Origin: Mobula birostris
Lineage: Eukaryota
Assembly: GCF_030028105.1 (NCBI RefSeq)
Contig: NC_092374.1
Coordinates: 31,195,016-31,259,015, forward strand
Direction of reading: 5' to 3'
Length of the DNA stretch: 64,000 nt
Shown here: piece after piece, positions 3,869 through 58,259 of the stretch
Layout: every line of letters starts with the position of its first letter
Numbering within the stretch: position 1 is the stretch's first letter
Program-made: the position numbers and the translations under genes
The notes under the pieces: generated by a model
Seen by the model: the letters and a program-made list of their open reading frames with translations, nothing else
Told to the model about the DNA's origin: nothing
The model's database searches: none

Positions 3869-4275
3869 GATTTTAACTTCATCCGTCTTGTAACCAATCA
3901 GTCAGCTTGACACTGCTTCAACAAGCTGCAAAAAAAATTAAGCTTATTCAGTTTTCTAAGGAAAAAATGCCCACACAAGTATTTGGCTAAGAAACATTCA
4001 AAAGTAATATACTGTCTAAAAAAAAGACTGTTAGAAGATCATGTATCATTATTCGTAAATTACGAGTATTTACTGTTCCTTCTGCATTGTGCTGTTCTCA
4101 CACCTTTCTCTGCAATACCTCTATATTAGTTATTGTTTAATTAAAGTAAAACTGCAACATTTACTACCACCTGGTGGAAAACAAAAAGCTTGCAGGAGGA
4201 CATAAGAGACTGCAGACAACACACACAAAAGGCTGGTGCACGCAGCAGGCCAGGCAGCACCTATAGGAAGACGTA

Positions 4276-4312
4276 CAGTCGACGTTCCCGGCCGAGACCC
4301 TTCGTCAGGACT
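4276..4312 (-). ncRNA. Minimal hammerhead ribozyme motif in inverted pLTR (GAAA mutated to GGAA)
   Basis: Minus strand reads agtc-CTGACGA-agggtctcggccg-GGAA-cGTC-gact. Confidence 0.65.
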
Positions 4313-4657
4313 AACTGAAAGAAGAGATAGTAAGAGATTTGAAAGGGGGAGGGGGAGGGGGAGATCGGAAATGATAGGAGAAGACAGGAGGAGGAGGGAT
4401 GGAGCTAAGAGATGGACAGGTGATTGGCAAAAGGGATACAAGGCTGGAGAAGGGAGAAGATCATGGGATGGGAGGCCTAGGGCAAGAGAAGGGGGTAGGG
4501 GAACACCAGAGGAAGATATAGTGAGAGGGACAGAGGGAGAAAAAAGAGAGAGAAACAAGGGGGGGGATATTAAAATAATAAATAAGGGATGGGGTAAGAA
4601 GGGGAGGAGTTTTTCAATGATTCTAAGTTCCCTGGCCCCCACCGCTTTATTTTCATC

Positions 4658-5334
4658 ATGGATGTCCCGTCCCTATATACTTCCATCCCCCATCAGGAAG
4701 GTATCAAAGCTCTCCACTTCTTTTTGGATTCCAGACCTAACCAGTTCCCCTCTACCACCACTCTGCTCTGTCTAGCGGAATTAGTCCTTACTCTTAATAA
4801 TTTCTCCTTTGGCGCCTCCCACTTCCTCCAAACTAAAGGTATAGCCATGGGCACCCGTATGGGTCCCAGCTATGCCTGCCTTTTGTCGGCTTTGTGGAAC
4901 AATCCATGTTCCAAGCCTATACTGGTATCCATCCCCCACTTTTCCTTCGCTACATCGATGACTGCATTGGTGCTGCTTCCTGCACGCATGCTGAACTCGT
5001 TGACTTCATTAACTTTGCCTCCAACTTTCACCCTGCCCTCAAATTTACCTGGTCCATTTCTGACACCTCCCTCTCCTTTCTTGATCTTTCTGTCTCTATC
5101 TCTGGAGACAGCTTATCTACTGATGTCTACTATAAGCCTACGGACTCTCACAGCTACCTGGACTATTCCTCTTCCCACTCTATCTCTTGCAAAAATGCCA
5201 TCCCCTTCTCGCAATTCCTCTGTCTCCACCAAATCTGCTCTCACGATGAGGCTTTTCATTCCAGGACGAAGGAGATGTCTTCCTTTTTTAAAGAAAGGGG
5301 CTTCCCTTCCTCTGCCATCAATTCTGCTCTCAAA
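4658..5334 (+). pseudogene. PLE reverse transcriptase (frameshifted)
   Basis: MDVPSLYTSIPHQEG...FLQTKGIAMGTRMGPSYACL (ORF 4658) and FLRYIDD...LSFLDL...VYYKPTDSHSYLDYSSSH (ORF 4894). Confidence 0.9.
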
Positions 5335-7737
5335 CTGGGTGCAAAGAAAAGGCTGGGAATATCAATAACTGTGGCGCTTCTCTTCCTGACAAACTTAACG
5401 TATTCTACGCAAGATTTGAACAGAAGAGAAGCGTCCTGCTCCCTCTTGATGAACCGGACCTGGTGGCATCGAGATTCATCGTCACTGGGGAGAACGTTAG
5501 AAGGGCCTTCCTGAAGATAAATCCAAGGAAGGCAACGGGCCCAGATGGCATCCCAGGATGGGTTCTCCGGGCCTGTGCAAGCGAGCTAGCTGGAGTGTTT
5601 GCTGACATCTTCAACTGCTCCTTGCTTCCGTCTAAGATCCCCTCATGTTTTTTTTAGATTATGAAGATACGTAGTCCTCTTTTATTGTCATTTAGTAATG
5701 CAAGCATTAAGAAATAATACATTATTTCCTCCAGTGTGATATCACAAAACACAGGACAGACCAAGACTGAAAAAAACTAACAAAACCACATAATTATAAT
5801 ATATAGTTACAAACAGTGCAACAATACCATAACTTGATGAAGAAGTCCATGAGCACAGTAAAGTTCAAAGTTTCTCAAATGTCCCACATCTCACGCAGAC
5901 GGGAGAAGGAAGAAAAACTCTCCCTGCCATGCCGACCGCAATCCGACTGAGTCATCTGAAAACTTTGAGCTCTGATCAGCTCTATGACACCGAGTACTGA
6001 GCACCATCTCTGTCCGAACGATTCGACCTCCTTCTCGGTCGCCAAAAGCAGGCAAGGTCGGGGATTTTGAGGCCTACCCTCTGAAAGATTCCCGACCACA
6101 CAGTGACGACAGCAGCGAACGGGCGTTTCAGAAATTTCTCCAGATGTTCCTCTGGGCTTTCACATCCATTCTCTATCAAATCAGAATTGTCCACAGCCCC
6201 TATTTAACAGATACGATACCACTTCTCACTGGAGGGCTGCACACACGCAGGCACACCGCCATCTTCTCCTCCCACCAGAGAGAAGGTAACGATAAGAAGG
6301 CAACAATAATCCTGGGGCTGAAGAAGAGCAAGGTGGCATGCCTGAATGACTATCAACCTGTGGCTCTGACATCAATTGCTATGAAGTGCTTCGAGCGATT
6401 GGTTATGGCACACATCAGCCACAGCCTACCGGTCAACCTCAACGCTTTACAATTTGCCTACTGGAGCAACAGGTCAACGGCAGATGCCATCTCTCTGGCC
6501 CTACATTCCTCCTTAGAACACCTGGAGAATAAAGATGCATACTTAAGGCACCTTTTCATTGACTACAGCTCTGCTTTTAATACCATCATTCCAAATAAAC
6601 TAATTCCTAAGCTCCGAAACCTGGGCCTTAGCACTCAGATCTGCAGTTGGATCTTCAACTTCCTCACAGACAGGACCCTGGCTGTAAAAATAGGGGGCAA
6701 GCTCTCCTGTACAATCACTCTGAGCACCGGTGCCCCACAAGGCTGTGTACTCAGCCCCCTGCTGTACTCACTGTACACCCATGATTGTGTAGCCAAGTTT
6801 CCATCAAACTCAATATGTAAGTTTGCTGATGACACAACAATTGTAGGCTGTATCTCAGGTAATGATGAATTTGAGTACAGAGAGGAAATTAAGAACCTGG
6901 TGGCATGGTGTGAAGACAAGAACCTATCCCTCAACGTCAGCAAGACGAAGGAATTGGTTGTTGACTTCAGAAGGAGTAGCGGACCGCACGACTTAACTTA
7001 CATCGGTGGTGCGCAAGTGGAATAGGTCAAGAGCTTTAAGTTCCTCGGGATCAATATCACAAATGACCTGATTTGGTCTAACCAAGCAGAGTCCACTGCC
7101 AAGAAGGCCCACCAACACCTTTACTTCCTGAGAAAGCTAAAGAAATTTGGCCTGTCCCCTAAAACCCTCACTAATTTTTATAGATGCACCGTAGAAAGTA
7201 TTCTTCTAGGGTGCATCACAACCTGGTATGGAAGTTGTCCTGTCCAAGACCGGAGGAAGCTGCAGAAGATCATGAACACAGCCCAACACATCACACAAAC
7301 CAATCTTCCATCCTTGGACTCACTTTACACTGCACGCTGTCAGAGCAGTGCTGCCAGGATAATCAAGGACACGATCCACCCAGCCAACACACTTTCTATC
7401 CCTCTTCCCTCGGGGAGAAGGCTTAGGAGCTTGAAGACTTGTATGGCCAGATTTGGGAACAGCTTCTTTCCAACTGTGATAAGACTGCTGAATAGATCCT
7501 GACCCGGATCTGGGCCGTACCCTCCAAATATACGGACCTGCCTCTTGGGTTTTTTTTGCACCAGCTTACTTTCCCATTTTTATTTTCTATTTATGATTTA
7601 TAATTTAAATTTTTAATATTTACTATCGATTTCTAATCCAGGGAGTGCGAAGCGCAGAATCAAATATCGCTGTGATGATTGTACACTCTAGTATAAATTC
7701 TTTGGCGACAATAAAATTCAGTAAAGTTAAGTAAAGT
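5335..7737 (+). mobile_element. Rex1/Babar LINE, 5'-truncated, inserted in the PLE ORF
   Basis: RKATGPDGIPGWVLRACASELAGVFADIFN; [18 protein letters not shown]; [11 protein letters not shown]; [19 protein letters not shown]; KFADD; (GTAAA)n tail. The PLE rejoins as tctgctctcaaa|tgcatctctccc with a possible AAA duplication. Confidence 0.93.
5654..6290 (-). mobile_element. Non-autonomous ~0.63 kb retroposon (GGGAGGAGAAGATGGCG family), copy 1
   Basis: Reverse complement aligns end to end with 18573-19207 and 49771-50444. It splits Rex1 between cctcatgtttt and aagaaggcaac. Confidence 0.88.
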
Positions 7738-8129
7738 AAATGCATCTCTCCCATTTCACGTACATCTGCTCTCACCTCATCCTCTTGCCACCCCACTAGG
7801 GATAGGGTTCCCCTTGTCCTCACCTACCACCCCACCAGCCTCCGGGTCCAACATATAATTCTCTGTAACTTCCGCCACCTCCAACAGGATCCCACCACCA
7901 AGCATATCTTTCCCTTCCCCCCCTTTCTGCTTTCTCCAGGGATCGCTCCCTACGTGACTCCCTTGTCCATTTGTCCCCCCCATCCCTTCCAACCGATACC
8001 TCTCCCAGCACTTATCCTCGTAAGCGGAACAAGTGCTACACATACCCTTACAATTCCCCCCTCACCACTATTCAGGGCTCCAGACAGTCCTTCCAGGTGA
8101 GGTGACACTTCACCTGTGAGTCGGCTGGT

Positions 8130-8423
8130 GTGATATACTACGTCCGGTGCTCCCGGTGCGGCCTTCTATATATTGGCGAGACCCGACGCAGACTAGGAGA
8201 CCATTTCGCTGTACACCTACGCTCTGTCCGCCAGAGAAAGCAGGATCTCCCAATGGCCATACATTTTAATTCCACGCCCCATTCCCATTCTGGTATGTCC
8301 ATCCACGGCCTCCTCTACTGTCAAGATAAAGCCACACTCAGGTTAGAGGAACAACACCTTATATTCCATCTGGGTAGCCTCCAACCTGATGGCATGAACG
8401 TTGACTTCTCTAACTTGTGTTAA
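8130..8423 (+). pseudogene. PLE GIY-YIG endonuclease
   Basis: IYYVRCSRCGLLYIGETRRRLGDHF...RLEEQHLIFHLGSLQPDGMNVDF. Confidence 0.9.
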
Positions 8424-8737
8424 TGACCCTCCTCCCCTTCTTACCCCATCCCTTGTCTATCTATTTATTTATTTATTCCCCCCTTTCTTTCTCTCTCTTT
8501 TTCCTCCCTTTGTCCCTCTCACTATATTTTCCTCTGGTGCTTCCCTCCCCCTTTCTCTCTCCCCAGGCCTCCTGTCCCATGATCCTCTCCCTTCTCCAGC
8601 CTTGTATCCCTTTTGTCAATCAACTGTCCAGCTCTTGGCTCCATCCCTTACCACCCCCCCCCCCCGTCTTCTTTCATTTCGGATCTCTCCCTGCCCTCTC
8701 CCTCCTTTCAAATCTCTTACTCTCTCTTCTTTCAGTT

Positions 8738-8774
8738 AGTCCTGACAAAGGGTCTTGGCCTGAAACGTCGACTG
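8738..8774 (+). ncRNA. Minimal hammerhead ribozyme motif in 3' pLTR (CTGACGA mutated to CTGACAA)
   Basis: agtc-CTGACAA-agggtcttggcct-GAAA-cGTC-gact. Stem I is agtc/gact; stem III is the palindromic ACGT. Confidence 0.7.
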
Positions 8775-8883
8775 TACTTCTTCCTATAGATGCTGCTTGG
8801 CCTACTGCGTTCACCAGCATTTTTTGTGTGTGTTGCTTGAATTTCCAGCATCTGCAGATTTCCTCGTGTTAAGAGACTGCAGA

Positions 8884-9960
8884 GCTGGAATCTGCTGCAA
8901 CAAATAGTTCTTCACATGCACTTTCTCCAACCTTGTCCACAGCATTCAGTGTGTCCACTGTGGTCTCCTCTACTTTGGCAAGACCAAGCACAGACTCAGC
9001 AACTGTTTTACAGGCACCTACACTCTGCTTGCAATGGTCATCCCAAACCCCCAGACAAATGTCGTTTCAATTCCACTCCCCACTCCCACATTGACCTGTT
9101 CATCCTCAGCCTTCTCGCTGTCAAGGTGAGGCCACATGCAAGCTCAAATTATATTCCACTTGGGTAGACTGCCATGCAATGCATTGAATTTGCTCATTTT
9201 ATGTAATCTTCCTCTGTGTTGTTTTCTCTCCCACTTACATGCCTCCGTAATTTTGAGAGTACCTTGCCCTCTTGGTTTCATTCACCAATTAGGCACTCAA
9301 TTCTCCCCTGCTTCCTTCCCACCTCCGATTCAGGATCCATCTGCCATTCACTTTTCCACTAATGGTTCCCATCATCACCTGCTTTAGCACAGGTACCCCT
9401 TTGTGTTCTGGTTTACCTCCCTCCAGCTGATGTCCCCAACCCTCACAATCCACCCCCCTAGCACTCATCTCATTCCATTTTCTCCTCATTTTTATTTCTT
9501 CTTAATCCGCTAATACCCAGAGTCTAGACTGACACCTACATCATTTATTATTGTATTGAAATTGTCCTCTACTGTGCCTATTGTCTTGTTTATTATTTAT
9601 TGTACTGCCCTGCACTCTTTTGTGTACTTTATGTAGTCCTGTGTAGGTCTGTATTCTAGTGTAGTTTTTGTGTTGTTTTACGTAGTCCAGTGTAGCCTTG
9701 AGTCGTCTCACTTAGTCTAGTGTAGTTTTGTGTTGTTTCATGTAGCACCATGGTCCTGGAGGAACATTGTTTCATTTTTACTGTGTACTGTACCAGCAGT
9801 GTATGGTCAAAATGACAATAAAAAGCAACTTGACTTGACTTGATCTATTATTCACTTGTCCCTGCCTACCAACTTCACTACCCCCTCTTCCTCTACTTGA
9901 CATAATCTGCCTGCCATCTTTCACTCTCCTCAGTCCACCAATCACCTTGAATTCCTGTCT
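8884..9960 (+). mobile_element. Older degenerate Penelope-like element (target of the younger PLE)
   Basis: Decayed GIY-YIG (tgtggtctcctctactttggcaagaccaagcacagact) followed by pyrimidine-rich pLTR. Its terminus aagagactgcaga(t)gctggaatctg supplies the TSD of the younger element. Confidence 0.7.
9525..9843 (+). mobile_element. 3' UTR of a Rex1-type LINE with internal ~31-bp tandem repeats
   Basis: Ends ggaggaacattgtttcatttt...aatgacaataaaaagcaacttgacttgacttga; repeated tagtgtagttttgtgttgttt units. Confidence 0.6.
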
Positions 9961-9989
9961 CTCTACCGCATACCCTGGCAGCCTCCAAT

Positions 9990-10620
9990 GCACCCGAACC
10001 CACAGTCACCATTATAGACATAAAAGTCTGTGGAAAACATCTGACGAGGATGATGTCCCCGTCTGTGTCCTTGGATGCTATGCAGATCAGCTAGTGGGAG
10101 TATTTGCAGAAATTTCTAACCTCACCCTGCTTCAATCTCTGGTTCCCACCTGCTTTAAGAAGATCCTGGTACCTAGGAAAACCAAAATGTGCCTAAACAA
10201 CTACCTCTCAGTTGCTCTGACATCTACCATCATAAAGTATTTTGAGAGGCTGATTATAACAAGTATTAACTCTTGCTATCCAGATTACCTCAACCCATAG
10301 TAACACACCTACTGCCGAAATAGATCTACAGCAGATGTCCTCTCCCTGGCCCTAGTCTCATCTCTAGAGCGTCTGAACAATATAGACACCTCTGTCAGAT
10401 TATAGTTTATTGATTACAGTTCTGCTTTCAATAATATAATTCCAAAGAAATTCAAAAACAGACTCTACATCTCACAGCAACTGGATCCTTGACTTCCTGA
10501 CCAATAGACCACAAGTAAAGGCAGCAACACCTCTGCCACAGTTATTCTAAGCACTGGTGCTCCACGAAGCTGTCTTCCCTGCCTCTGACTCTACACCCGG
10601 CACACTCATCACTGCATAAC
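9990..10620 (+). mobile_element. Rex1/Babar RT fragment, decayed
   Basis: ADQLVGVFAEISNL...NNYLSVALTSTIIKYFERL (ORF 9947); tttattgattacagttctgctttcaat (FIDYSSAFN). Confidence 0.8.
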
Positions 10621-10624
10621 CAGA

Positions 10625-11090
10625 GATCATCGTGGCAGAGATGTTATTGTCTATTCTTCTGACTGCAGTCTGTTGGTCAGGAAATCAAGGATCCAGTTGC
10701 AAGAGGGAGGTGTTGACTCCCAGAGTCTAGAGTTTGGTGATGACTTTCCTTGGGATTATGGAATGAAAGTGGAGCTATAGTCAATAATCAATAGTCTGAT
10801 GTAGGTGTCTTTACTGTCTAGATGCTTCAAGGATGAATATAAGACCAGGGAGGTGGCGACCACCGTAGACCTGTTTCAACAGTAGACAAATTGATATGGT
10901 TCAAGTTTGTCTGGAGGGCTGGTGCCATGCCCAGCCTCTCAATGCCCTCCATGATGGTAGATGTCAAAGCCATTGGATGGTAGCTGTTAAGACATGTTAC
11001 CTTGTCTTTCTTGGGTACCAGGATGATAATGATCTTTTTCAAGCAGACTGAAACAGAGGTTTAAAAATGTCTTCAAATACCTCCAAACAA
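10625..11090 (-). mobile_element. Rex1/Babar RT fragment, decayed, opposite orientation
   Basis: ORF 10827-11042 (ILVPKKDKVTCLNSYHPMALTSTIMEGIERL). Confidence 0.8.
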
Positions 11091-13743: not shown

Positions 13744-14850
13744 CTTCCGACTTAAGATGGCACTGGTGAAGCACGGTGATGACTTGAGGGCAGCAAACAA
13801 AACAAAAATCACTGTATTAATCATACACAAAATGCTGGAGAAATGCAGCAGGCCAGGCAGCATCAATGGAAAAAAGTACAGTCAGCATTTCAGGATGAGA
13901 CCCTTCATCAAACTCCCGTCGAAGGGATTTGGCCAAAAACACTAACTGTACTCTTTTTCCATAGACGTTGCCTGGCCTGCTGGGTTCCTCCAGCGTTTTG
14001 TGTGTGTTGCTTGGATTCCAGCATCTGCAGACTTTCTCGTGTTTGTATTAATCGCACTTTCTCTTGAATGTGGTCACTGCAATCAGCAGCCTGTAACTTT
14101 CCTTTTGGAGTTGAGCTGTTGAGTCACCTGTACCGCTTGGCATTTTTGTGGCGTGAACTGGAGTCTTGAAGGTGCAGGACAGTTGCAGTGTGGCATTCAT
14201 GGGCTGTACTGAGGTGAGTTGGCACAAGAGTGGGGAATGGGCCAATGCTTGGCCAATGCTGGAGCGGACATGGCAATTTGAAATGGCAGAACTGAGTCGA
14301 GGCGGGTGGAGGTGATGTTAGCGACGAGGCAGCATGGCTTGTGCCCAAGCCAGAGAATGAGGAAAGACCTGAGGGTTGATCGGTTTAAACGCTAGGTTTC
14401 ATTTGAGCTAAATTGAGGCGGCGGGGCCTGGGACCGAGAGCAGGAAGTGACTGAAGGTTTAGATGATTTAAGCATCAGGCTAGATTAAAAATGTCAGGGT
14501 GTCAGGGCTGGAGGCAAGGGATGGGTTCGTGCTCAGCTGTCTGCTCTGCAAGGTTTACTGATCTCTGTGTCGAACTGGGGCTATGACCTGCAACTAATGG
14601 GCACCTGAATCGGCAGCAGTGATACTGTGTCTGTGGACTCACTTTTGTGAACTTCAGTTCTGAATATTATTTGCTTGTTTTTATTGTTTGCATGATTTGT
14701 TTTTTTTTTCTGTCCTGCACATCGAGTGTTGCACAGTCTTCTTTTTTTAATTGGTTCTTTTGGGTCTCTTTGGTTTGTAGCTGCCTGTAAGGAGGCAAAT
14801 CTCAGGATAGCATACATACTTCGATAATAAATATACTTTGAACATGAACG
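13744..14850 (+). mobile_element. Non-coding LINE-derived element (AAGATGGC head plus Rex1-type 3' end)
   Basis: Starts cttccgacttaagatggcac and ends aatctcaggatagcatacatacttcgataataaatatactttgaacatgaac. No coding capacity. Confidence 0.55.
13823..14043 (+). mobile_element. Fold-back PLE mini-insertion (head-to-head pLTR ends) with 10-bp TSD
   Basis: TSD tgtattaatc at 13813-13822 and 14044-14053. Arms acacaaaatgctggag...gcagcaggccaggcagcatc and gacgttgcctggcctgctg...ctccagcgttttgtgt. Confidence 0.88.
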
Positions 14851-18390: not shown

Positions 18391-18572
18391 AATTTGCAGA
18401 TTAGTTTTTGTAATACTGGGAATTGTGGAGATTATTTTTAGGCAACGTAACGAAACACCAATATAAATGTTCAGAAAATTTGCAATAGTGATGTTGGTTG
18501 AGAGCTCAACATTGGTCAGAATTCTGGGAGAACTCAGCTCCAGTTCTTCTCATAATTCGTGAGGATTAGTGA

Positions 18573-23569: not shown

Positions 23570-23600
23570 TACATAAGGAATTTTAGGACCAAAATGAGGA

Positions 23601-24955: not shown

Positions 24956-25959
24956 AGTCCCGTTCTTGTTGAAAAATGGGCAAGAGGCCTGTTCTTATAA
25001 AACATATCGTCTTTACTCATCTTCAACAGAAGCTGCAAATCTGAAAGCTATGTGGCCTATTGAAAATTATAACCTTTGAAGCAAAATAGCAGGTTCCAAA
25101 CTTTAAGGCTAAAAATAATGATATAGAAAAATTATGGATCTGGATAGAGATTGGCCTCAATAATTACTTTTAGAAATAAACTCAGCTGTTTTTGAAATAA
25201 AAGAAACTCAGAAGATGAGTTAAACTTTGAAATCTTGTGATGGACTATGATCCACTACCTACCACCTTCCTAACATTATGCTCACACATACGGCAGTCTA
25301 AAGAAAGGTACCAAACATAAGATCTTAGATTGTGTAGACAGAGAGAAAGCTGTGGATTTAGGATAAGCAAGTATTGTGAGTTCTGATTGCATGCTTTGTA
25401 TGCATATGCGTGAGCTGTTTAGACCATAAAACAATACGACCATAACGCTTCTTATGTGAGCTGTTTCGTGTCAGCAGCAGAAATTATCTGTGGTTCAATA
25501 GTTCATTGGTCTTGTGTTCTGTTACATATCTGTGTGGGTCAACAGGGATATACTTATATAATAACAATGGGAGGGTTCTTAGTGCTCTGCCTGGACTTTC
25601 CAGAAACGCACTGGCAGTCACGCTTATGTGGGTGGTTTGCGCTTCAGAAATGGCATTTGAGTGGATCTAGTGAATTATACATAAGGCTTTGAAGTAACTA
25701 GTTGGGGATAGTGTTCATTTGAAGGGAATTTTTGAAATTTGAAAAGGAAAGAGAAGGAGATAGTGTAGTGTATTGTAATAGCCAGTGCTAAGAAGTGTGT
25801 GACAAGATGAGATAGAATCAGTAATGAAAATCATATAGTAATAAAACAGGGCCAAAGCAGGGAAGGAAAATGGTAAAGTCAAAATTAAGGGCTCTTTATC
25901 TCAATGCATAAAGCACTCATTACAAAAATAGATGAATAAGCAGCTCAGATATAAATTAC

Positions 25960-26093
25960 ATATATAAAAATAAGCCTGAAACGTCGACTGTACCTCTTCC
26001 TATAGATGCTGCCTGGCCTGTTGCGTTCACCAGCATTTTTTGTGCACGTTGCTTGAATTTCCAGCATCTGCAGATTTCCTCGTGTTTGCGTTT
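25960..26093 (+). mobile_element. Very short PLE pLTR insertion with 15-bp TSD
   Basis: tcagatataaattac (25945-25959) and tcaaatataaattac (26094-26108) flank gcctgaaacgtcgactgt...gcatctgcagatttcctcgtgtt. Inserted in an old CR1 endonuclease remnant. Confidence 0.8.
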
Positions 26094-26189
26094 TCAAATA
26101 TAAATTACTCTATTTTATCTAATAGTTGTTACAGAGATGTGAATGCAAGCTAACTAGTGTTGGGAACTGAGTACATTCAGCAACAAGAT

Positions 26190-31524: not shown

Positions 31525-31528
31525 ATCA

Positions 31529-31778: not shown

Positions 31779-34700
31779 TTCCCCAGGTCCAATACCATCT
31801 TCATAAAGCTTCTCTGCATCATCTTGAGTACTGTGACTTTCCAGATTTCCAGTGTCCTCTGAGAGAAAGAAAAAGATGTTAGCAAATCTCTATAATAAAC
31901 TTCATGAAATTACATTCCTATATTTGGTGTTCTTGTTGAATAGTTTGCTAACTTCTGCTTTATCTGTCCCGTTCATTGTTCTATGGTTCCTATCGTACAT
32001 TCTCTCAATTTTCTTTTACCATGTGATGTTTGAGTATTCTCCAACCTTCACACATACCTTTAAAACCTTTGATATTTGCAGATCGTGTTGATTAGGATAC
32101 TGACAAAGGGATACTGTAGCAATGGCTTTGTTAGCAGAAATATAAATTATAAAATTCAAGGAAGTTAAGCCAAATCTTGGGCTTTCCATCGAGACAGAGA
32201 ATCACCTGATTCCACTCCAGTTTTGTCAGTTCTGAATTGGACTAACGTGACCAACATAGGAACTGTAGACCCTTCCATAGATGGGATAGAAGGAGCCTGA
32301 TGGGGCAGGTGAGTGAACTTCCGCATTCACCCATGGGTAGCCTTGAGACTCTCAACACCATTCCGAATGCTCATTTGCTACTTTGAGCTGTCATAGGAGA
32401 AGGTTTCCCAGGAGTCAGTAGGGTTGTTGTATTTTCTCAAGGAGACTTTCACCACATCCTTGTCACCTTGTGAAGTAAAAAACAGAAAGTGCAGTAAACA
32501 CTTGCCAGGTGCAGCAGGTTGGGCAGCATCTGTGGAAAGACAAACAGTTCATATCTGAGGTCCAGGACCCTTCGTCAGAGCTTTGAAGGGGGGGGGGGGG
32601 ATAAAAACAAGTTGGTTTTCATTAGGAGAGATTGTGGGGGAAAGACAGGTGAAACAAGGAAAATCTCAATGATAGGATAAATTTACGTGGGCTCATGAGT
32701 GTAGTTACTGGTGCATTAAACTTATTTGTCTATGTAATATGTTGTTAATGTCACTCCCTCACTCCCTCACGCTGGATGAGCCCTGCTAGTCAGGCAGTAT
32801 CCATGGAGGCATTGACGTTTTCATACCGAGACCCTTCCTTAGGACTTCCTTCCAATTCTTATGTTAAAGTGGTAAAGACAGCAATTATGTTACAGAAGGA
32901 GACATTGTAATGGAAGTGAGGAACTGAGATCATGCAAATCAGAATGCAAGAAGTGCCTTTCCTCTACTTGGAAACACAAAGTATCATCAAGAATATTTAG
33001 GATTCTGGATGGATTCCAAATAGAAGGTGAAACTTCAGCTATGATCTTTTTGGAATGAATTCAGATTGGGTGCATGCACTGAGCAATCAGATCTGGCTGT
33101 AAATGTGGGTCTTACCAAATATACCAACACAAATAAAGACAAAAAGAAGTAAATAAAATGGAAAAGACAAAAGGTAAAAGAGAGTGTTGTGTTGAGGGGA
33201 TGAGGACTGATTTTTTTATCAAATGCAAAAGAAACAACAACTCTGAATGCTGAAAATCTAAAATAAATGTAGAGCTTATATATAAATATTTAACCAGTCA
33301 CTTGGCTTCTTTGAGGGAAAATATTCTGATATTCAGCTCTGAATATATTTGGTGACTCTGCTTCCACTGCATTCTGGCATAGAGAATTCCTAAGGTACAT
33401 ACACAACAACTTTTCAGACAGCTGGAAAATCATATCTGCATCTGAAACAGCAACTTCCCATTCTTTGCTAAATTCTGGATTCCTGCTTGACAGCTGATGA
33501 TCTGTCAGCATCAATCACAGGGTTATGGAGTAATACAGTACTTAAACAGACCTTTCAGTTCAACTCATCCACGCCAACCAAGATGCCCATCTAAGCTGGT
33601 CCTATCTGGAGGGACACACTGAACCTCAGTGGGGTACAACCACAGTATAGTTGGAGTCAGAACTAAACTCTAAAAAAGAACAAAAACATCAGATCCAGAC
33701 TTTCATCTTCACTTGAGGAATGGCTAGTATTTATTTACTTGAATGGGGTTCCAAGCCTACATGGAAAAGCTGAGTGCAGACATTTTTTCTTTGATTTACT
33801 TACACTGTTTACTTAGACTTAACAGTTTTGTTAATTTCCAGCAATTAAGCTTTCTTTCCCTTAGTAATTTATTCTTTAATCATTTTAATTATTAAATGGT
33901 TTTGAACTCTTTGTTTTTAAATGCAGCATAAAGTAAATGCTGCTTTAGAAACAACATTTGGATGCAGCCACGATCAAGTATGATTTGGCCCAATAAATCG
34001 TATGGAGAAATTACACTTGGTCTATCAGTTGAAGTTAAATGGTTAGAATAGGACAAAGGAACACAGATTTAAACCAGTAATGGGCAAATCTAGGACTGAT
34101 ATATCTCAATTTTTTCACACAGAGTAATCATGACCCAGACGGGATTCCAAATAGAATGGTGAAGATGAGAAATGAAAAAGAAAATTGGAATGGTGTGGGT
34201 CGTTCTCAATAAGTGAACTGAAATAGGTCGAAAAGACTTCATCATCACATAGTCTCCCTTAATAGAATTGACCAGAGCTGCTTTCTGCTAGAGTGAGTTC
34301 CAGATTCACACTGCTGTCTATGTAAAATAATTTCTTTGAAATCTATGTCTGATTTTTGCTATGGCTCTTCTAAACTGTTGGGTTCCCAAAGTAGAACCAC
34401 ACTTTATCTATGCTGTATATATTTTTTTTTAAAACTTTTGAAGAGCCTTATTTGGACGTGTCTCCACCTCTTCAGAAGGAAGGATAGTGGAACAAGCTGC
34501 CAGAATGAATGGTAGAAGTAGGCATGATTATAATATTTAAAATCGATTTGAAAAGGTACATGAACACAAGATTCTGCAGATGCTGGAAATCTAAAGTACA
34601 CACACAAAGAGCAGGAGGAATTCAACAAGTCAGGGAGGGGAACAAACAGAAGTTTTGAGTTGAGACACTTCATCAAGAAAAAGAAGCAATAAAAAAACAT

Positions 34701-35087
34701 TGCAAGTTCTAGAGCAATTCATTTTGTGTGTGTGTGTGTGTGTTGCTGTAGAACTTGAGATGTCTTTTTATTGACAGATCAGTAATTTGTGCATTTGAGC
34801 TCCTAGATCTCTCTGCTTCTTTACTCCTTTTAAATTCCAGTAATATATGACTTCCATTGTTGTCTTACTAAAGTTTATGTAATTCCTCACACTGCTTTTT
34901 TCCAAACATTGTGCCCACCTGTTAATTCTTCTTTGCAGTTCTTGACCTTGACTGTCTCTGTGCCCCTTTTATTTGCTGCTATCTGCAAATTTAGAAAGTA
35001 TGTTTTTGATTCCAGCGTTTAAATACTTTCAAATTGTGAACAGAACTGATCCTAGTTGGACCTCAGTTTTCTCACTTTGCCACTTAG

Positions 35088-39899: not shown

Positions 39900-41150
39900 T
39901 GATAAGTAACAGATTTTTTCATTACTAGAATAATGTGGATTGATTAGAGAAAGCATCTTGAATTTGTAAAAGACAAATTGGGCCTACCAAATTAGATAAT
40001 GTTTATTTTTGTGAAGTAATGGAGAGGTTTGAGGAGGGAAGTATGGTTTGATTACTGTACATATTTAAAATCTTTTGAATAGGTGCCACATAATGGGCTT
40101 ATGATAAATATATAAGGCCATAGTTTAAAAGATGCTGTAACAGCATAAATAACAGGAGATAAAGCATAGTACTGTTAACATAGAAACATAGAAAATAAGC
40201 TGCTTTTCACACTAGAGGGAAGTTTTCAGTGTCGTGCTCTACGAATCTATAATAGTAGTAAATCACAAACATGAGAAAGTCTGCAGATGCTGGAAATCCA
40301 AAGCAATACACACAAGGTGCCGAGTTCCTCCAGCATTTTCTGTGTGTTGCAATATTGGTAGTGCTGCACTTCTTAATAAATGTTAATATTTTGGACTTGG
40401 ATGTGCAGGTACAATTCTCTAAGTTACAGATGACATAGAACTTGCAGTCGTAGTGAACTGTGAGTACTGCAAGAAGATAGGCTGGTGCAATGTGCAGACG
40501 GATGGCAGATGAAGTTTAACGTGTTACATTTTAGCAAGAAGAGGGTGAGAGGAGATAAACTAGAGGATGCAGTTCTAAAAGGGAAACTGTACTGTTCTAT
40601 GTTCTTAATGGAAGAGTTCTGCATTTGAAGCCGGCAAGCCAGGTTGAGATAGTAGTTATCAAGCCATATAGAATCTTGGGCATTATCCGTAGGGGCACTG
40701 ACTGCAAAAGCAAGGAAGTCACAAAGAATGTCAATATGAAGCATTGGTTCAACCATAATAAATAATGAGTATTATGTTAATTTCTTGGCATCACATTTAA
40801 GAAAGACATAAAGGCTTTGGGGAGGCCACAGAGGAGACTGACTGAGATGATTCCAGAGATTAGGGGCTTTGATTATAGGTATAGTCTGAAGAAGTGGCTT
40901 GTCCACCTTGGAACAATGGAGTTTTTGAGGAGACAGGTAGTGCAGATAGTTCTTGACCTGGTGGAGAGGTCAAAACTATGGGGGGTAAAATGAAGGAAAG
41001 TAGCAAACAGGCCGAAACTGACACCAAAATTTGTTTTATCGAGTCAGAAGTACACTGCCAGGAATAGTACGCAGGTTAATTCAATGTAGAATTCAAAAGG
41101 GAGTGAGATAAGGGACTCATTGCAGGGTGGTGTGGTGATATAACTAAATG
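39900..41150 (+). mobile_element. Old CR1 LINE
   Basis: tttaaaatcttttgaataggtgccacataatggg (KAFDKVPH-like); tctctaagttacagatgac (SKFADD-like); tggcagatgaagtttaac (WQMKFN). Confidence 0.7.
40261..40350 (-). mobile_element. Collapsed fold-back PLE mini-insertion
   Basis: gcaatacacacaaggtgc and gcattttctgtgtgttgc inverted arms; pLTR tail on the left arm only. Possible degenerate TSD (tataatagtagt / aatattggtagt). Confidence 0.65.
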
Positions 41151-41549: not shown

Positions 41550-42450
41550 AGTATTACTGATGTCCTCCACATCAGTGAGATGGCTTTGCCAAGCACCAAC
41601 TCTCCATCCACCATGGAACTCCCAGCTGCAAGCTAGTTTAATTTCCCTCCCATTCCCACACAAACCTAATTGACCTCTGCCTCCTCCATTGCCAAGTGCA
41701 AACTAAAGGAACAGCACTTCATATGGCACTTGGGTAGCAGACGGCATGGACATTGAATTCTCCAGTTTGTCCCGCAGTTCAATTTCTGCCACTGGCTGTA
41801 AGGCATTTGTACACTTGCCTCTAGCTTCCAGTTTTGTCCCATGTTCCAAAACATAAGACGTACGGGTGAGTAAGTTGTGGGCATGTTATGTTGGCTCTGG
41901 AAGCAAGGCGACACTAGCGGGTTGCCCCATCACATGCAGAGACGTTGTTGGTCGTTAATGCAAATGATGCACTTCACTGCATGTATCATTGTTTCGATAA
42001 ACAGACAAATAAAGCTGATTCTTGTAATCTTATCTCTTCTCTTTCTACTCCAACTACCTATCAACCACTCATTCTACCCACAGAATCCCACTGCTTTCCT
42101 TGATAGTTTCTATCAACCCCACCTCCCTTATTTGGTTTCATGATCCTCCCTCTCTTCTTATCGGGTTCTACCATCTGCAGCCCATTGTTGTGGCCATTTA
42201 TCCCTTCCCAGCCTTTGTTGCTACTTCCATACTTCCTTTCTCCATGTGCCTATCATGCCTCCTCATCTGCATCCACCTATCACTTGCCAGCTTTTGCACC
42301 ATCCTCCACTCCCTTTGCTCTTTGTACTAGATTATTTCTCCTCTTTCAGTCCAGAATGAAGGGTCTCGACCCAAATTATCAGCTATCCATTTGACTCTAC
42401 AGATCCTGCCTGACCTGTTGAGTTCTTCCAGCAGTTTGTTTCTTGCTCAG
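41550..42450 (+). mobile_element. Degenerate PLE (GIY-YIG end plus pLTR), split by SINE-like insertions at ~41775-42030
   Basis: ggaacagcacttcatatggcacttgggtagc...catggacattgaattctcc (EQHLIF.LG.L...GMNIEF-like). pLTR tttcagtccagaatgaagggtctcgaccc. Confidence 0.65.
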
Positions 42451-43229: not shown

Positions 43230-43800
43230 GGCCAATGCGGGATGGAGCAGTTGTTGCTTGACTGGTTGCACAGGTGGGTTGCAAGGGTTCTCCCCACCTA
43301 TCAATCCCTGTCTTATGGCAGTTTCCCTTGCAACCACAGAAGATGCAACACCAGTCTTTCACCTCTCCCCTGCCCAACATCCAGGGATCCAAATAGTCCA
43401 ATGCAACACATACAAAATGCAGGAGAACTCAGTAGGTCAGGCAGTATCTGTGGAAATGAGTAAACAATCGACGCTTCAGGTCACGACCCTTTAGGACTTT
43501 CACCAAAGCAGCTATTGACTTGAATTTCTTCCAGTCAGAGTATAGTTCAAAACGTGATCTCCTCTACACAGGACAAACCAAACTCAGCTTGGGCAAATGC
43601 TTTGCAGAGCACATGTGGTAGTCCACAGGAGAGAGACTGATCTTCCAGTTGCCTGTCACTTTTATTTCACCATCCCACTCCCACTCTGACTTGAGGGGAT
43701 CCCTTGTGATCCCTCTTGTTATCACAAGGCCCAATACAGGCATGAAGGACACCACCTCATCTTCGGGCTGGCAATGTTGCAGCCTTCTAGACTCAATTTT
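43230..43800 (+). mobile_element. Degenerate PLE GIY-YIG region with an inverted pLTR piece at ~43404-43497
   Basis: cccttgcaaccacagaagatgcaacacc; ctcctctacacaggacaaaccaaactcagcttggg (LLYxGxT-like). Confidence 0.6.
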
Positions 43801-44537: not shown

Positions 44538-44866
44538 AACTGACTTGTATTTACCTCTTTCCCAATCCACTTCTGAACCTCAAACACTAATAGTTTCTCC
44601 TTCCACAGACGCTGCCTGACCAGCTGGGTGTTCCCAATAGTTTCTGCTTTCTCTATGCCATTTTCACTTGGTTTCTGTTTACTTCTGAAGGGATCACAGT
44701 TCAGAATAGAGTTCCTTTTTTTTGGACTATGATGGTAGGCACATGGATAATATGGTCCAAGTATTAGAGCTGGATGAAAGCAATCAGGGCCTCAATACAG
44801 AGTCTTTGTTCTGGGAGTGGTTGTTGACATTGATTCATTTATCCTGTCAATGAGTTTGGAGGATTT

Positions 44867-45053
44867 CATACAAAATGCTTGAGGAATTCAGCAGGCCAGG
44901 CAGCATCTATGGAAAAGAGTGACAGTTGACATTTCGGGCTGAGGCTCTTCATCAGGACAGGTATTAGATCCTCAGCCTGAAACATCGACTGTTTACTCTT
45001 TTCCATAAATGCAGCTTGGCCTGCTGAGTTCCTCCACCATTTTGTGTGTGTTG
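44867..45053. mobile_element. Fold-back PLE mini-insertion with degenerate ~19-bp TSD
   Basis: Arms catacaaaatgcttgaggaattcagcaggccaggcagcatctatggaaaagagt / actcttttccataaatgcagcttggcctgctgagttcctccaccattttgtgtg. Flanks aatgagtttggaggattt and aatgaatttcagagggttt. Confidence 0.82.
44923..44959 (-). ncRNA. Minimal hammerhead motif with intact core
   Basis: Minus strand: gtc-CTGATGA-agagcctcagccc-GAAA-tGTC-aact; stems partly mutated. Confidence 0.6.
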
Positions 45054-45537
45054 TAATGAATTTCAGAGGGTTTTACAGAGAAAGACCATGCCTCTAAAGC
45101 ATACAGGAGGTCAGAGGCCACTGCCACTCAAAAACCATGAGCTTAGTGCTGAGCGTCAGGTCCTCATCTTCGAATGATCTTTTCCTCAGGTAGTCAGAGG
45201 ATATGCTTGTGCATTAGGAGTGGTGGTGAATTTCATCAACAGTGTCAAGTGCTGATACCTCCTGAGAAATGGAAACTGATCCATATTTTCCACGACCCTG
45301 TGGCACATAAAATTGACCATTATCTTTCACTACACTTCACCTTCTGTAAAATACTTTCTCATGCCATAAGATCATAAGGAGCAGAATTGGGCCATTTGGC
45401 ACTTAGATTATGGAAGGTGCCATAACAATACAAACCTTCTTAGATCATATTTTAATAACTTGATGGTACTTCCATGTATTTTGATCGCCTGAGCTACACT
45501 ACAGTTACTCAATGCCATTATTAAAAGAATGCCATCC

Positions 45538-46372
45538 ACAAAAGTACCTGCAGATGCTGGATATCCAAAGCAACACACGCAAGATACTGAAGGAACTCAG
45601 AAGGCCAGACAGTATCTATGGAAGAGAATAAAGAGTCGATGTTTCAGGCTGATACCCTTCATCAGGACTGGGAAGGAATATGAGGTCAGAGTAAGAAGGT
45701 GCAGGGAGGGGAGGAAGAAGTGCAAGGTGGTAGATGATAGGTGAAACCGGGGGAAAGAGGTGAAATAAAGAGCCGAGGAGTTGATTAGTGAAAGAGATAA
45801 AGGGCTGGAGGAGGGGGAATCTCACAGGAGGGTGGGTAGAAGACCGTGGGGGAAAAGGAAGGAGGAGGAGCACCAGAGGGAAGTGATGGGCAGGTAAGGA
45901 GATAAGGTGAGAGAGGGAAACAAGAATGGTGAAGGGGGGGGGGCAGTTACCAGAAGTTCAAGAAATCATTGTCCATGCTATCAGGTTAGAGGCTCTCAGA
46001 TGAGATATTAGGTATTGCTCTTTCAACCTGAGTGTGGCCTCATCGCGACAGTAGAGGAAACCATGGACTGACATGTCAAAATGGGTATGAGAAGTAGAAT
46101 TGAAATGAGTGGCTACCAGGAGATCCCGCTTTTACTGGTGGACAGAGTGTAGATGCTCGGCAAAGTGGTCTCCCAAAGTACGTTGGGTCTCACCAATATA
46201 CAGCAGACCACACCAGGAGCACCAGATTATAGTAGATGATCCCAACAGGCTCACAGGTGTAGTGTCACCTCACCTGGAAGGACTGTTTGGGGCCCTGAAT
46301 GGTAGTGAGGGAGGAGGTGTAGAGGAGGTGTGGCACTTGTTCCACTTGCAAGGGTAAGGACCAGGAGGGAGA
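45538..46372 (-). mobile_element. Penelope-like element 3' part (GIY-YIG plus pLTR)
   Basis: Reverse complement parallels 8020-8869 (ctgtatattggtgagacc = LYIGET); terminal tccagcatctgcag tail. Confidence 0.85.
45634..45669 (-). ncRNA. Minimal hammerhead motif with intact core
   Basis: Minus strand: agtc-CTGATGA-agggtatcagcct-GAAA-cATC-gact. Confidence 0.68.
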
Positions 46373-46696
46373 GAATACCGTGGCTTTGCTCTCAACTCAG
46401 AAATATTAGTCAGTTCTTTCATTGCATCTCTTAGTAATAAAGCTGAGATTATGTAGAAATCTGGAACTACTTTAACAGAAAAATGCCAAAATGAGCAGGA
46501 GTTAAGCTAGTTCTTGGCTGCAGGCTGCCCTGGAAGATAGGATAAAGAGAATTCCTTATGAATTTAAATGATGATCTCAAGCTTCTCCATTTCCTCCCCA
46601 GCTGCCCAGGCCTCGCGTTTGTCCGGGAAGGAAGTCCCATGGCAGAATGCCACTGATACATAAGGCAGAGAGGGGGATCATTCTCTGGGAAATAAG

Positions 46697-48110: not shown

Positions 48111-48253
48111 CAACACACATAAAAATTGCTCAGACCAGACAGCATCTATAGGAGGAGGTACAGTCGACGTTTCGGGCCGAGACCCCTTGTCAGGACTAAA
48201 TGAAAGAAGAGATAGTTAGTCCTGACGAAGGGTCTCGACCCGAAATGAACTGT
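48111..48253. mobile_element. Fold-back PLE mini-insertion with back-to-back hammerhead motifs
   Basis: Minus-strand motif 48161-48197 (agtcctgacaaggggtctcggcccgaaacgtcgactg) and plus-strand motif 48218-48252 (agtcctgacgaagggtctcgacccgaaatgaactg). Confidence 0.8.
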
Positions 48254-48748
48254 AAAACTATAAAACAAACTGAGTTTCAGATTAGGAAATTCATGGCTAT
48301 TCCAGAGCACAGGTGCTCCCCAGGTTTTGAATAACCAACTTGTGCACATACAAATTTGGGAGACCAGTGGGATGGATTTCTTGGTGTCTGCAGGGTGGAA
48401 AGAGGACTTCCACATGCCTTATACCCTACCTCCTCCCCCTCCCCAGAGTCTCAGCATTTGGGAGTTGGGTTGAGTTGACCATTGCAAGGAGTCCTTGGTA
48501 AACTCACTCACTCACTCAGTCAATGAGGTTGGCTGGTGGCTGTTCTTCTCATGCCTGCTCACTTTCTCACACAGCTGTCTATGATCCTCCTCCACGTACT
48601 GTTTTTGTTCATTTCTGACTTGTGAACAATTGAGGTTGTGAACAGTTCTCAGGTATAGATCTCCAAGTGGACCACAACCTTGTCGTGGTTTGGAAGGTTG
48701 CGTGCCTCAAGGACCTGGAGAGCTATGTTCGCTGGAGTCAGGGCTTTA

Positions 48749-56060: not shown

Positions 56061-56900
56061 AAACATTGTCAAATATCAAATTTAATTTCTAATTATCATT
56101 CAACCATGCATGAATATAGCCTCTGGGGCCAAGGTGCAAAACACATTACCCACAGCGTACAGCACACTGCAAATAGGACATAGCACAACTATCACATATT
56201 ACAGAAAAAATATGTCGTCACAAAGAAAAAAATAATAATATAGCCCAAGTCCCTGAGTGGCATGACCAGAGATTGTCCTGGTCCAGCTTGTTCTTCCGCG
56301 GAGCAAACACAGGAGGGCAACACTAAGCGAACACCGGAGGACAGCATCAAGTGAATACTGGAGTGCTGCACTGATAGGAAGGACCAGCTGCCAACTCAGC
56401 ATGATTCCAGCAGGCTCAGGAGAGGTTCCCGCTCTCTCTCCTGGGTGGCTGCAACAGGCTGCTGTGTCCAAGGTGACCCCATGGCCGAGGCCTAGTCCTC
56501 GCTACAACTGAGGCAATGCGGCTCCCCACAGCTGGTTTCACCAACAAATGGACTTGCAGTATTCTACATTACCAATGTCCAATAGGATCTTATGATCTCA
56601 ATAAAAACATCCAGGATAATCACTTGCTCTGTATGTTGGATCAGTCATTGTCTCTGCACAATGGTATGCCGAAAGTCCAGGTCACAACACAATGATACGC
56701 AATAAGTCTACCTCCATTCACAAGTTGATCAAACTTGCTGTGTCTCAGCATGCCGCCGTCCTTCCAGAAGACAATATAAGCTCAATTGTCCCACTCTCTT
56801 TTTATGGATCAATCTTGCCATCCTACGGATGGCTCCCCTCTCTCCAAGGGACGAACATTCTTCTTGCCGTAAGTAGGCCATGACTTTATCAATCTTAGTG

Positions 56901-57048
56901 TAACACACACAAAAAACTGGAGGAATTCAGCAGGTCAGGCCACATTTATGCAGGGATATAGCCATAGATGCTGCCTTACCTGTTCAGTTCTTCCAGCTTT
57001 TTGTTCTTGGTGCTCAAGATTGCCAGCATCTACAGAATCTGTTGTGTC
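56901..57048 (+). mobile_element. Collapsed fold-back PLE mini-insertion
   Basis: acacacaaaaaactggaggaattcagcaggtcaggc / gctgccttacctgttcagttcttccagcttttt plus tail ccagcatctacagaatct. Confidence 0.7.
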
Positions 57049-58054
57049 ATAGTTCTCAGGGAGTGGTCTCACCAAGACACCTTGCAAATACATTAAGATA
57101 TCCCTACTCCAGCACTCAAATCCTCTTACTATGAATGATAGTACACTATTTGCCTTAATCACCTGCTGTATCAGTAGTCTTAGTTTCATTGACTGGTGTA
57201 CAAGGACATCCTGGTCTCAAGGCACTTCTCCCTTTCCTAATCCATCACCATTCAGATAATAATGGTCTTCCAACTTTGCCACCAAAGTGGATAACATCAC
57301 ATTTATCTGCATTACACTGCATCCACCACGCATACACCTAGTCATTCAACCTGCCAGTCACACCGGACCCGCTTTACAATCTTCCCATAGCTCTCGCTCC
57401 CATCCAGCTTTGTGGTATCTGCAAACCTATTGATATATATTTAATTCCCTTGTTAACTCATTAATCTGAATAGCTGTGTTCAAAGCACTGAATACTGCAG
57501 TGCTTGACAATATTTCCTCTTTTTATCTCCTGTATGCCAACCAGTTCATTAAGTTATCCCTTATACCACTGTTTTAATTTCACATACTTATCTCTTATGT
57601 GGGTCTTCAGGTCCAAATACACCACATCAATTCATTCTCTTCAATACACCTGGAAGTTACAGTACATCTTCAAAATATTTCAGTAAATTTGTCAAGTATG
57701 AGCTTCCCTTTATGAAGTCATGCTGACTTTGACTGATGCAGTCATTGTTTTCCGAATACTCTCCGATTGTATCTTTAAGAGTGGAGTCTAGCATTTTCCC
57801 CAACTCTGTCTTTACTTTTATGTTTTAGTTCTCCCTTTTGTAAATAGTGGAGTATATCTGCTACTCTCCGATCTGTGGTAACTGATGCAGAGTTTAAGTA
57901 ATGTTAGAAAATGATGACCAATGCATCCAATATTTCTTGGGACACTTTCATAAGATCTCTGGGATGCAGAATATAAGGCCATGGGGGATCTATTGGCTTT
58001 CAATCCTATCAATTTTTCCAGCACCTCCTCTCTACTAATAAAGGCTTCTACAAG

Positions 58055-58259
58055 AGGGAAAAAAACAACTTCCAGAGGATCTCAATGGTTTTGGCCACAT
58101 CCGTAGAGCTAAATGGACAGTCACCATTTCAGTGTGAATCGTTCATCAGCCAGATGAATGGTCTCAACTTGAAACATTGACCATCCCTTTGCCTCTGCAG
58201 ATGTTGCTTGACTTGCTGTATTCCTCCAGCAGTTTGCTTCTTTTTACTCCTGATTCCAG
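58055..58259 (+). mobile_element. Older fold-back PLE mini-insertion
   Basis: Centre ttcatcagccagatgaatggtctcaacttgaaacattgac holds back-to-back decayed hammerhead motifs; arms are diverged. Confidence 0.6.

What the first reader, a model, noticed from the sequence alone, without database searches (positions are those of the whole stretch)
4203..58259. Hammerhead-ribozyme-bearing Penelope system that spawns short fold-back mini-elements with long TSDs
Seen: the pLTR consensus agtc-CTGAYGA-a-gggt(ctcg)rccc-GAAA-cGTC-gact has the hammerhead core (CUGANGA, GAAA, NUH), a 4-bp stem I (agtc/gact), a 4-bp stem II and a palindromic ACGT stem III. The motif recurs, variously decayed, at ~3385, 4276, 8738, 13880-13945, 25975, 32550-32582, 42345, 43465, 44923, 45634, 48161/48218 and 58130-58180. 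Several are 90-220 bp insertions made only of two head-to-head pLTR ends (13823, 40261, 44867, 48111, 56901, 58055). TSDs are 10 bp perfect (13823), 14 bp perfect (4217), 15 bp with one mismatch (25960) and ~19 bp degenerate (44867). Established: PLE pLTRs carry minimal hammerheads thought to cleave as dimers, and PLEs often have inverted 5' pLTRs. Inference: these palindromes are either extreme 5'-truncation products or a non-autonomous, retrozyme-like family with a ribozyme on each strand. Either way they scatter long hairpins (dsRNA, editing or siRNA substrates) every few kb. No single copy here matches the consensus perfectly, mostly through CpG decay.
Basis: partly seen in the sequence, partly recalled or inferred. 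Interest (0 to 1): 0.75.

Follow-up and report, generated by a model that had tools for sequence, protein, structure and literature searches.

The report
Head-to-head Penelope retrotransposon stubs, ray genome
These short mirror-image insertions are real, decayed stubs of a very abundant jumping gene of a known type (Penelope-like) whose end carries a known small ribozyme motif; each was likely built anew on landing by copying the element's RNA from both cut DNA strands, so they are likely by-products and not a self-spreading ribozyme family.

Summary
A profile of the pLTR end finds 28 arms at 21 loci (0 in the reversed window), and all four quoted TSDs are confirmed. The parent is a Neptune-type Penelope-like element (RT, linker zinc finger, GIY-YIG; 85-90% identical to ray proteins). 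Its terminal motif fits the published minimal, dimer-type PLE hammerhead; cleavage is untested and 0 of 22 aligned arms keep every feature. The retrozyme-like-family option is not supported. The 9 two-armed insertions have different junctions and span at least 2-3 subfamilies, two of the six named ones hold no hammerhead, the long hairpin sequesters the ribozyme, and public contigs list no dominant shared junction. The layout (inverted truncated pLTR, ~34-nt tail on one arm, variable TSD) is the published PLE insertion structure. Best model: both nicked target strands prime reverse transcription at the element's two start sites and the two cDNAs join head to head. Seven of 20 arms stop within 6 nt at the hammerhead's 5' edge and none at the cut site, suggesting run-off from the 5' end of an uncut RNA. 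The scan has noted this before, in this genome and at least 28 others.

The parts
4203..4216 (.). left TSD of the long copy (14 bp; partner 8870-8883)
   Evidence: 14/14
4217..4609 (-). inverted pLTR arm without tail; covers reference 8429-8835 at 89%; hammerhead motif 4277-4312 (core 10/11)
4610..5336 (+). 5'-truncated PLE reverse transcriptase (motif A to thumb), one frameshift
   Evidence: RVT_1 weak, E 0.031; 85-90% identity to ray proteins
5337..7740 (+). nested non-LTR (LINE) fragment interrupting the PLE ORF; borders approximate
   Evidence: RVT_1 E 4.7e-26; PLE relatives align up to 5331 and resume at 7744
7744..8426 (+). PLE linker (CX2-5CxxC zinc finger, two Cys lost in this copy) and GIY-YIG endonuclease with CxxC; frameshift and stops; ends TAATGA
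   Evidence: GIY-YIG E 0.0052, below cutoff; 87% to P0003
8427..8835 (+). 3' pLTR, used as reference
8738..8773 (+). minimal type I hammerhead motif; stems I and II 4/4, ACGT palindrome, G8 mutated; predicted cut between 8769 and 8770
8836..8869 (+). ~34-nt tail, found on one arm only
8870..8883 (.). right TSD of the long copy
13813..14053 (.). 221-bp fold-back stub with 10-bp TSD; tailless minus arm 13823-13913, tailed plus arm 13914-14043; both arms end at ref ~8738-8740
25945..26108 (+). single tailed arm starting inside stem II (ref 8758), 14-nt AT-rich filler, 15-bp TSD
   Evidence: (I5)
40260..40351 (.). 92-bp fold-back with no hammerhead; tail on the minus arm
44849..45073 (.). 188-bp fold-back, both arms tailless, ~10-nt filler, 19-bp degenerate TSD; motif whole on the minus arm only
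48111..48254 (.). fold-back with junction at ref 8722/8733; outer end of plus arm lost; no TSD
56900..57048 (.). 149-bp fold-back with no hammerhead; tail on the plus arm
58055..58262 (.). old fold-back; both arms end at ref ~8741-8742
45543..45882 (-). single pLTR of a second subfamily; the only copy with 11/11 core and both stems (45634-45669), but stem III is ACAT, not palindromic
43399..43499 (-). single arm ending at ref 8738
42332..42447 (+). single pLTR end, oldest subfamily
32473..32588 (-). single divergent pLTR end
32769..32846 (-). single arm ending at ref 8738
3373..3479 (+). decayed arm with only the 3' half of the motif

Best explanation
The palindromes are short, decayed head-to-head insertions of a Neptune-type Penelope-like retrotransposon, likely made anew at each landing and likely not a family that copies itself. 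Shown: the parent ORF, the motif in the pLTR, the TSDs, two fixed outer ends 34 nt apart, variable inner junctions, several subfamilies. Inferred steps: (1) the RT-endonuclease nicks both target strands 6-19 bp apart; (2) each 3'-OH primes reverse transcription inside the RNA, usually one at the tail end (ref 8869) and one at the pLTR end (ref 8835); (3) each cDNA stops early or runs off the RNA's 5' end, which likely lies at the front edge of the hammerhead (ref ~8738), giving arms of about 98 and 132 nt; (4) the two cDNA ends are joined head to head, sometimes with filler, and gap filling makes the TSD. The hammerhead is carried passively on an uncut RNA; it is predicted to cut only as a dimer or with protein help in transcripts of intact tandem elements, and the stubs here are predicted inactive.
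For: Tail on exactly one arm in 6 of 9 two-armed insertions, on neither in 3, on both in 0, as described for PLEs (PMC3846280, PMC8557442). A purified Anolis PLE protein cleaves and extends both strands, starts RT at two internal sites that bound the tail, is predicted to be a dimer, and uses uncut RNA (PMC11167929). Junctions differ among the 9. Arms fall into an oldest group (95/96 support), a youngest group (86/85) and an unresolved rest, each also holding single-arm copies. Public contigs: summed arm depth is about 1e5 times flank depth, yet the listed arm-to-arm joints all differ and reach at most depth 138 (15 of 1052 joints and 12 of 259 filler rows shown); the 15 of 49 joints shown rest on 1-2 contigs. 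Seven of 20 arms end in one 6-nt window at 8738-8743 (p 0.005; 5 of 13 insertions, p 0.026); 0 of 21 end within 4 nt of the cut site. The tailless arm reaches further inward than the tailed one in 3 of 6 (26437, 40262, 56901) and the reverse in 2 (4217, 34563), so one arm is not simply a copy of the other.
Against: No mechanism step was observed; no genome was held, so the sample is 9 two-armed insertions. Inner ends were read by eye from decayed copies, two arms of one element are not independent, and homology between subfamilies also drops at 8738 (loose ends there have only 0.38-0.42 agreement), which can inflate the cluster for single arms. No transcription start was mapped. 44867 has two tailless arms. 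Contigs break at palindromes, so a common symmetric junction could be under-reported. Later deletions at hairpin centres could erase the polarity that self-priming predicts. Arm-shared rare variants were inconclusive.
Confidence: 0.72

Rival explanations
1. Self-priming (snap-back): one cDNA folds back at a small palindrome and copies itself, and the endonuclease resolves the hairpin at the pLTR end, leaving one arm tailless. Still independent by-products, but from one RT start.
For: Proposed for Adineta PLEs from palindromes at inverted junctions (PMC3846280). Near-symmetric junctions at 13823, 56901 and 58055. The 34563 junction holds an inverted copy of its own right end and flank, which looks like fold-back synthesis.
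Against: The second arm cannot contain sequence absent from the first, yet the tailless arm reaches 5-50 nt further inward in 3 of 6 tailed elements; in 44867 each arm has sequence the other lacks.
Confidence: 0.14
2. A non-autonomous palindromic family (retrozyme-like or SINE-like) that is transcribed as a unit and spread in trans by the PLE protein.
For: TSD-flanked ORF-less units; very high copy number; a recurring ~210-230-bp size class (13823, 58055); a few joints at several times single-copy depth (137.6 in X10, 81.6-93.8 in X5). PLE-derived non-autonomous retrozymes exist in vertebrates (bioRxiv 2026.07.22.740005).
Against: No two of 9 junctions are identical; 13823 and 58055 belong to different subfamilies; 2 of 6 named elements lack the motif; the two motifs lie on opposite strands so cannot release a unit-length RNA, and stem II probability is 0.0 in 4 of 4 hairpins; retrozymes are head-to-tail tandem arrays.
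Confidence: 0.06
3. Stubs arise after insertion: longer inverted-pLTR copies (like 4217-8869) lose their interior by hairpin-driven deletion.
For: The long copy has the same outer ends and TSD type; inverted repeats are deletion-prone (established knowledge); 48111 has lost one end.
Against: Does not explain the clustering of inner ends at 8738-8743 or the junction fillers; no long empty-centre intermediate was seen.
Confidence: 0.08

Closest known systems
EN+ Penelope-like element insertion unit: pLTR, adjacent inverted 5'-truncated copy, 30-40-bp tail at one end, variable TSD (PMC3846280, PMC8557442; passages read)
   Same: Inverted truncated pLTR, one-sided 34-nt tail, head-to-head junction, TSD of 10-19 bp, heavy 5' truncation.
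   Different: Here both arms are often cut down to under 135 nt, giving ORF-less 90-220-bp palindromes; the passages read describe longer units.
Minimal type I hammerheads of metazoan PLEs, including fish Xena, Poseidon and Neptune (PMC4209133, parts 1-2 of 4 read; PMC6765202, passages)
   Same: CUGANGA and GAAA core, extra nucleotide between 9 and 10.1, G10.1, short stem I, palindromic 15.2-16.2, location in the pLTR, many dispersed single copies.
   Different: Stem II is 4 bp (7-8 bp in Schistosoma); this ray family was not found by name in my searches; no copy here is fully intact.
Poseidon_Ac (PAc) of Anolis carolinensis (PMC11167929, parts 1-2 of 4 read)
   Same: Two RT start sites bounding the tail; both strands cleaved and extended; hammerhead dispensable for insertion.
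   Different: Poseidon clade, no linker zinc finger; its ORF starts at stem II, whereas the ORF start of this family was not located.
Non-LTR retrozymes (bioRxiv 10.64898/2026.07.22.740005, parts 1 and 3 of 5 plus passages read)
   Same: ORF-less, pLTR-derived, hammerhead-bearing.
   Different: Retrozymes are head-to-tail arrays with two or more same-strand hammerheads; these are single head-to-head pairs.
LINE-1 twin priming (recalled, no call)
   Same: Both target strands prime cDNA, giving an inverted 5' piece.
   Different: In L1 the second primer anneals upstream so the pieces do not overlap; here both arms copy the same terminal sequence.

Membership tests
EN+ Penelope-like element | PLE-type RT followed by C-terminal GIY-YIG in one ORF | tested here: met
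   pieces align colinearly to relatives of 800-890 aa with RT and GIY-YIG; ORF broken in this copy
EN+ Penelope-like element | CCHH motif, two Cys between GIY and YIG | tested here: met
   CxxC between the two half-motifs at 8106-8420, later His residues aligned with relatives
EN+ Penelope-like element | pLTR, inverted truncated copy, one-sided tail, TSD | tested here: met
EN+ Penelope-like element | partial-tandem arrangement | tested here: inconclusive
   none in the window; 'goes back' joints in public contigs suggest head-to-tail ends elsewhere
Neptune clade | CX2-5CxxC zinc finger in the RT-EN linker | tested here: met
   present in close ray relatives and in 44 of 50 hits that reach the EN (of 120 listed); two Cys mutated in this copy
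Neptune clade | RT phylogeny with reference Neptune versus Nematis | not tested
   no labelled reference set held
Minimal type I PLE hammerhead | core C3-A9, G12-A15.1, U16.1, H17 with stems I and II | tested here: met
   family majority; 1 of 22 window arms passes core and both stems (descriptor 1 site against 3 in 20 shuffles)
Minimal type I PLE hammerhead | palindromic stem III for dimer formation | tested here: met
   ACGT in the youngest copies, 4/4 intermolecular pairs; lost by CpG decay in many, including 45665
Minimal type I PLE hammerhead | covariation in stems | tested here: not met
   13 copies: covariation 0.200 against shuffled 0.221; 77.5% of cells paired against at most 52% when slid
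Minimal type I PLE hammerhead | self-cleavage after position 17 | not testable with these tools
   needs an in vitro assay
Non-LTR retrozyme | two or more same-strand hammerheads in head-to-tail tandem units | tested here: not met
   0 of 9 two-armed insertions
Non-LTR retrozyme | circular RNA intermediate | not testable with these tools
   no RNA reads could be laid
Self-propagating non-autonomous family | shared internal junction and diagnostic sequence across loci | tested here: not met
   9 different junctions in the window; no dominant joint listed (partial tables, contigs only)

The most novel reading that the evidence does not exclude
The stubs are a fossil readout of the unresolved PLE integration step: a dimeric RT-endonuclease primes both cut strands at the two internal start sites near the 5' end of an uncut RNA, both cDNAs run off a transcription start that coincides with the first base of hammerhead stem I, and they are joined head to head. 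That would explain the inverted pLTR, the one-sided tail and the ~230-bp size class in one step, and place the ribozyme at the very start of the RNA.
Probability: 0.4. Interest if true: 0.55.

Novelty: new member of a known kind. Interest (0 to 1): 0.3.

Why it matters
The element class, its hammerhead and its inverted-end layout are published, so this is mainly annotation. The value is mechanistic: how PLEs make inverted ends and a one-sided tail is stated as unresolved (PMC8557442), and a very high-copy family of short two-armed stubs makes the double-priming and run-off model testable by a genome census, 5' end mapping and the existing in vitro PLE assay. Long hairpins every few kb could feed editing or siRNA pathways (siRNAs from Penelope inverted repeats are reported in Drosophila, PMC3681739, passages read), but nothing here shows that.

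Tried and rejected
Whole-genome census: no genome held. Rfam: no hammerhead match at E<=1; the mir-789 hit on 44908-45007 (32.7 bits, gathering 100) only reflects the hairpin and is rejected. Expression, editing, small RNA: no RNA holder listed. Covariation: none above shuffles in 13 copies. Cleaved RNA as template: 0 of 21 arm ends within 4 nt of the cut site. Same-template test by arm-shared rare variants: shared letters were mostly subfamily or CpG positions, inconclusive; a possible shared stem II variant in 44867 was seen by eye but not recovered by the aligner. Empty site for 13823: a 270-nt skip (13803 to 14074) in 3 of 4 runs on 1-3 contigs resembles uninterrupted copies of the host repeat but is not exact; no paralogue in the window. 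ORF start inside the pLTR: no significant hit of three frames of 8736-8870 to the 120 proteins. TSDs for 48111, 56901, 58055: not above chance. Lunse et al. (PMC5785218) was not held; its dimer result is taken only from the review PMC6765202. Literature: 7 searches; those on shark or elasmobranch PLE hammerheads, palindromic non-autonomous PLEs and PLE twin priming listed no paper on these stubs by title or abstract start; subscription papers and Repbase/Dfam were not searchable, and no supplements were read.

Full report
Setting. The window is repeat-rich vertebrate DNA. The RT fragment at 4894-5334 is 85-90% identical to proteins annotated in Mobula and Hypanus, so the source is likely a ray. 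No assembly was held; genome-wide evidence comes only from public contigs of four coded runs.

Observation. A profile from 12 arms finds 28 hits at 21 loci and none in the reversed window. The four TSDs are confirmed at 14/14, 10/10, 14/15 and 15/19; 48111, 56901 and 58055 have none above chance. Five of the six named fold-backs form significant hairpins (z -3.3 to -16.6); 40262 does not. Two more fold-backs lie at 26437 and 34563.

Parent element. 4217-8869 is one TSD-flanked insertion: an inverted pLTR arm (4217-4609), a 5'-truncated RT, a nested LINE fragment (5337 to about 7740), linker and GIY-YIG, pLTR and a 34-nt tail. Pfam scores for the PLE pieces are below cutoff, but relatives of 800-890 aa align colinearly across the LINE. 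The CX2-5CxxC linker finger in close relatives points to Neptune type (definition); no tree against labelled clades was made.

Hammerhead. The motif at 8738-8773 has the features listed for metazoan PLE minimal hammerheads. In public contigs the family majority restores G8 and the stem II loop, and no variant is listed at most core and stem I positions among 40 of 50 rows shown. In the window, 3 of 22 aligned arms have 11/11 core positions, 1 also has both stems, and that one has lost the stem III palindrome. Rfam finds nothing and 13 copies show no covariation above shuffles. So the family carries a known type of ribozyme motif; activity is untested and the window copies are predicted dead. 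Published assays find low activity, only as multimers or with protein help, and cleavage was not needed for insertion.

Family or by-product. Nine insertions have two arms. No two share a junction. A tree of 17 arms (the two 56901 arms were left out as too short) separates an oldest group (95/96) and a youngest group (86/85) from an unresolved rest, and each also holds single-arm copies. 40262 and 56901 lack the motif entirely. In the four hairpins folded, hammerhead stem II has probability 0.0, and the two motifs are on opposite strands, unlike retrozymes. In contigs, summed arm depth is about 1e5 times flank depth (the tool warns this is no copy number), but the listed arm-to-arm joints all differ and peak at depth 138 (15 of 1052 joints shown); the 15 of 49 joints shown rest on 1-2 contigs. 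Contigs break at palindromes, so this is supporting, not decisive. One contig of organism D runs from the unique flank 56 nt into the 13823 arm with 74 differences in about 947 nt, so that insertion is old.

Mechanism. Outer ends fall at two places, ref 8835 and 8869. The tail is on exactly one arm in 6 of 9, on neither in 3, never on both. This is the published PLE layout and matches the two internal RT start sites and two-strand extension of the Anolis protein. Self-priming requires the tailless arm to lie within the tailed one; it reaches further inward in 3 of 6. Inner ends, read by eye, cluster at 8738-8743 (7 of 20 arms, p 0.005; 5 of 13 insertions, p 0.026) and none of 21 lies within 4 nt of the cut site; 3 of the 5 opposite-strand joints shown in table 5 also have one end there. 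I noted the cluster; reading it as run-off from the RNA's 5' end comes from earlier scan notes and is consistent with a transcription start inside the pLTR of Drosophila Penelope, but no start was mapped here, and subfamily homology also drops at 8738. Run-off from both start sites predicts 98 + 132 nt, close to 13823 (221 bp) and 58055 (about 208 bp).

Novelty. Element class, motif and layout are in print. My 7 searches listed no paper on such short stubs or on double priming in PLEs, within the limits of the library. The scan has recorded the same thing many times: 146 notes in at least 29 genomes by words and 187 notes fitting in this genome; these are unchecked AI notes, not independent evidence. 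Verdict: new member of a known kind, interest 0.3, with a mechanistic lead worth a genome-wide test.

Papers seen: PMC4209133 parts 1-2 of 4; PMC11167929 parts 1-2 of 4; bioRxiv 2026.07.22.740005 parts 1 and 3 of 5 and passages; PMC3846280, PMC8557442, PMC6765202, PMC2377424, PMC3681739 passages only; others as search listings; no supplements. L1 twin priming and hammerhead numbering are recalled.

Noticed in passing
window 34563-34773: Fold-back whose junction holds a 31-nt inverted copy (87%) of its own right end and flank, suggesting flank-templated synthesis at a free cDNA end.
   Followed up: partly
window 8774-8792 and homologous arms: A pyrimidine tract ending in YAG followed by ATG sits about 19 nt after the predicted cut site in all subfamilies; it resembles a splice acceptor. 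PLEs are known to keep 5' UTR introns; not tested.
   Followed up: no
window 31463-31570: 5' part of a U2 snRNA (53.9 bits, gathering 46), likely a pseudogene.
   Followed up: no
window 45997-46395 (-) and 8911-9009: Further PLE endonuclease remnants; the first lies upstream of the 45543-45882 pLTR. The 43400 arm appears by eye to sit inside another old PLE endonuclease remnant.
   Followed up: partly
window 26087-26094: The 25960 copy runs about 8 nt beyond the usual tail end; loose ends after 8870 begin similarly, so a third, rarer outer end may exist.
   Followed up: no
window 10477-10700: An unrelated inverted repeat (33 nt at 94% plus 30 nt at 77%) in LINE-like sequence.
   Followed up: no
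window 5680-6240: The nested LINE ORF is itself interrupted by about 560 bp of other sequence (borders approximate).
   Followed up: no
window 36385-37798 and 17252-18549: Decayed LTR-retrotransposon-like and non-LTR-like ORF fragments, judged by eye from translations.
   Followed up: no
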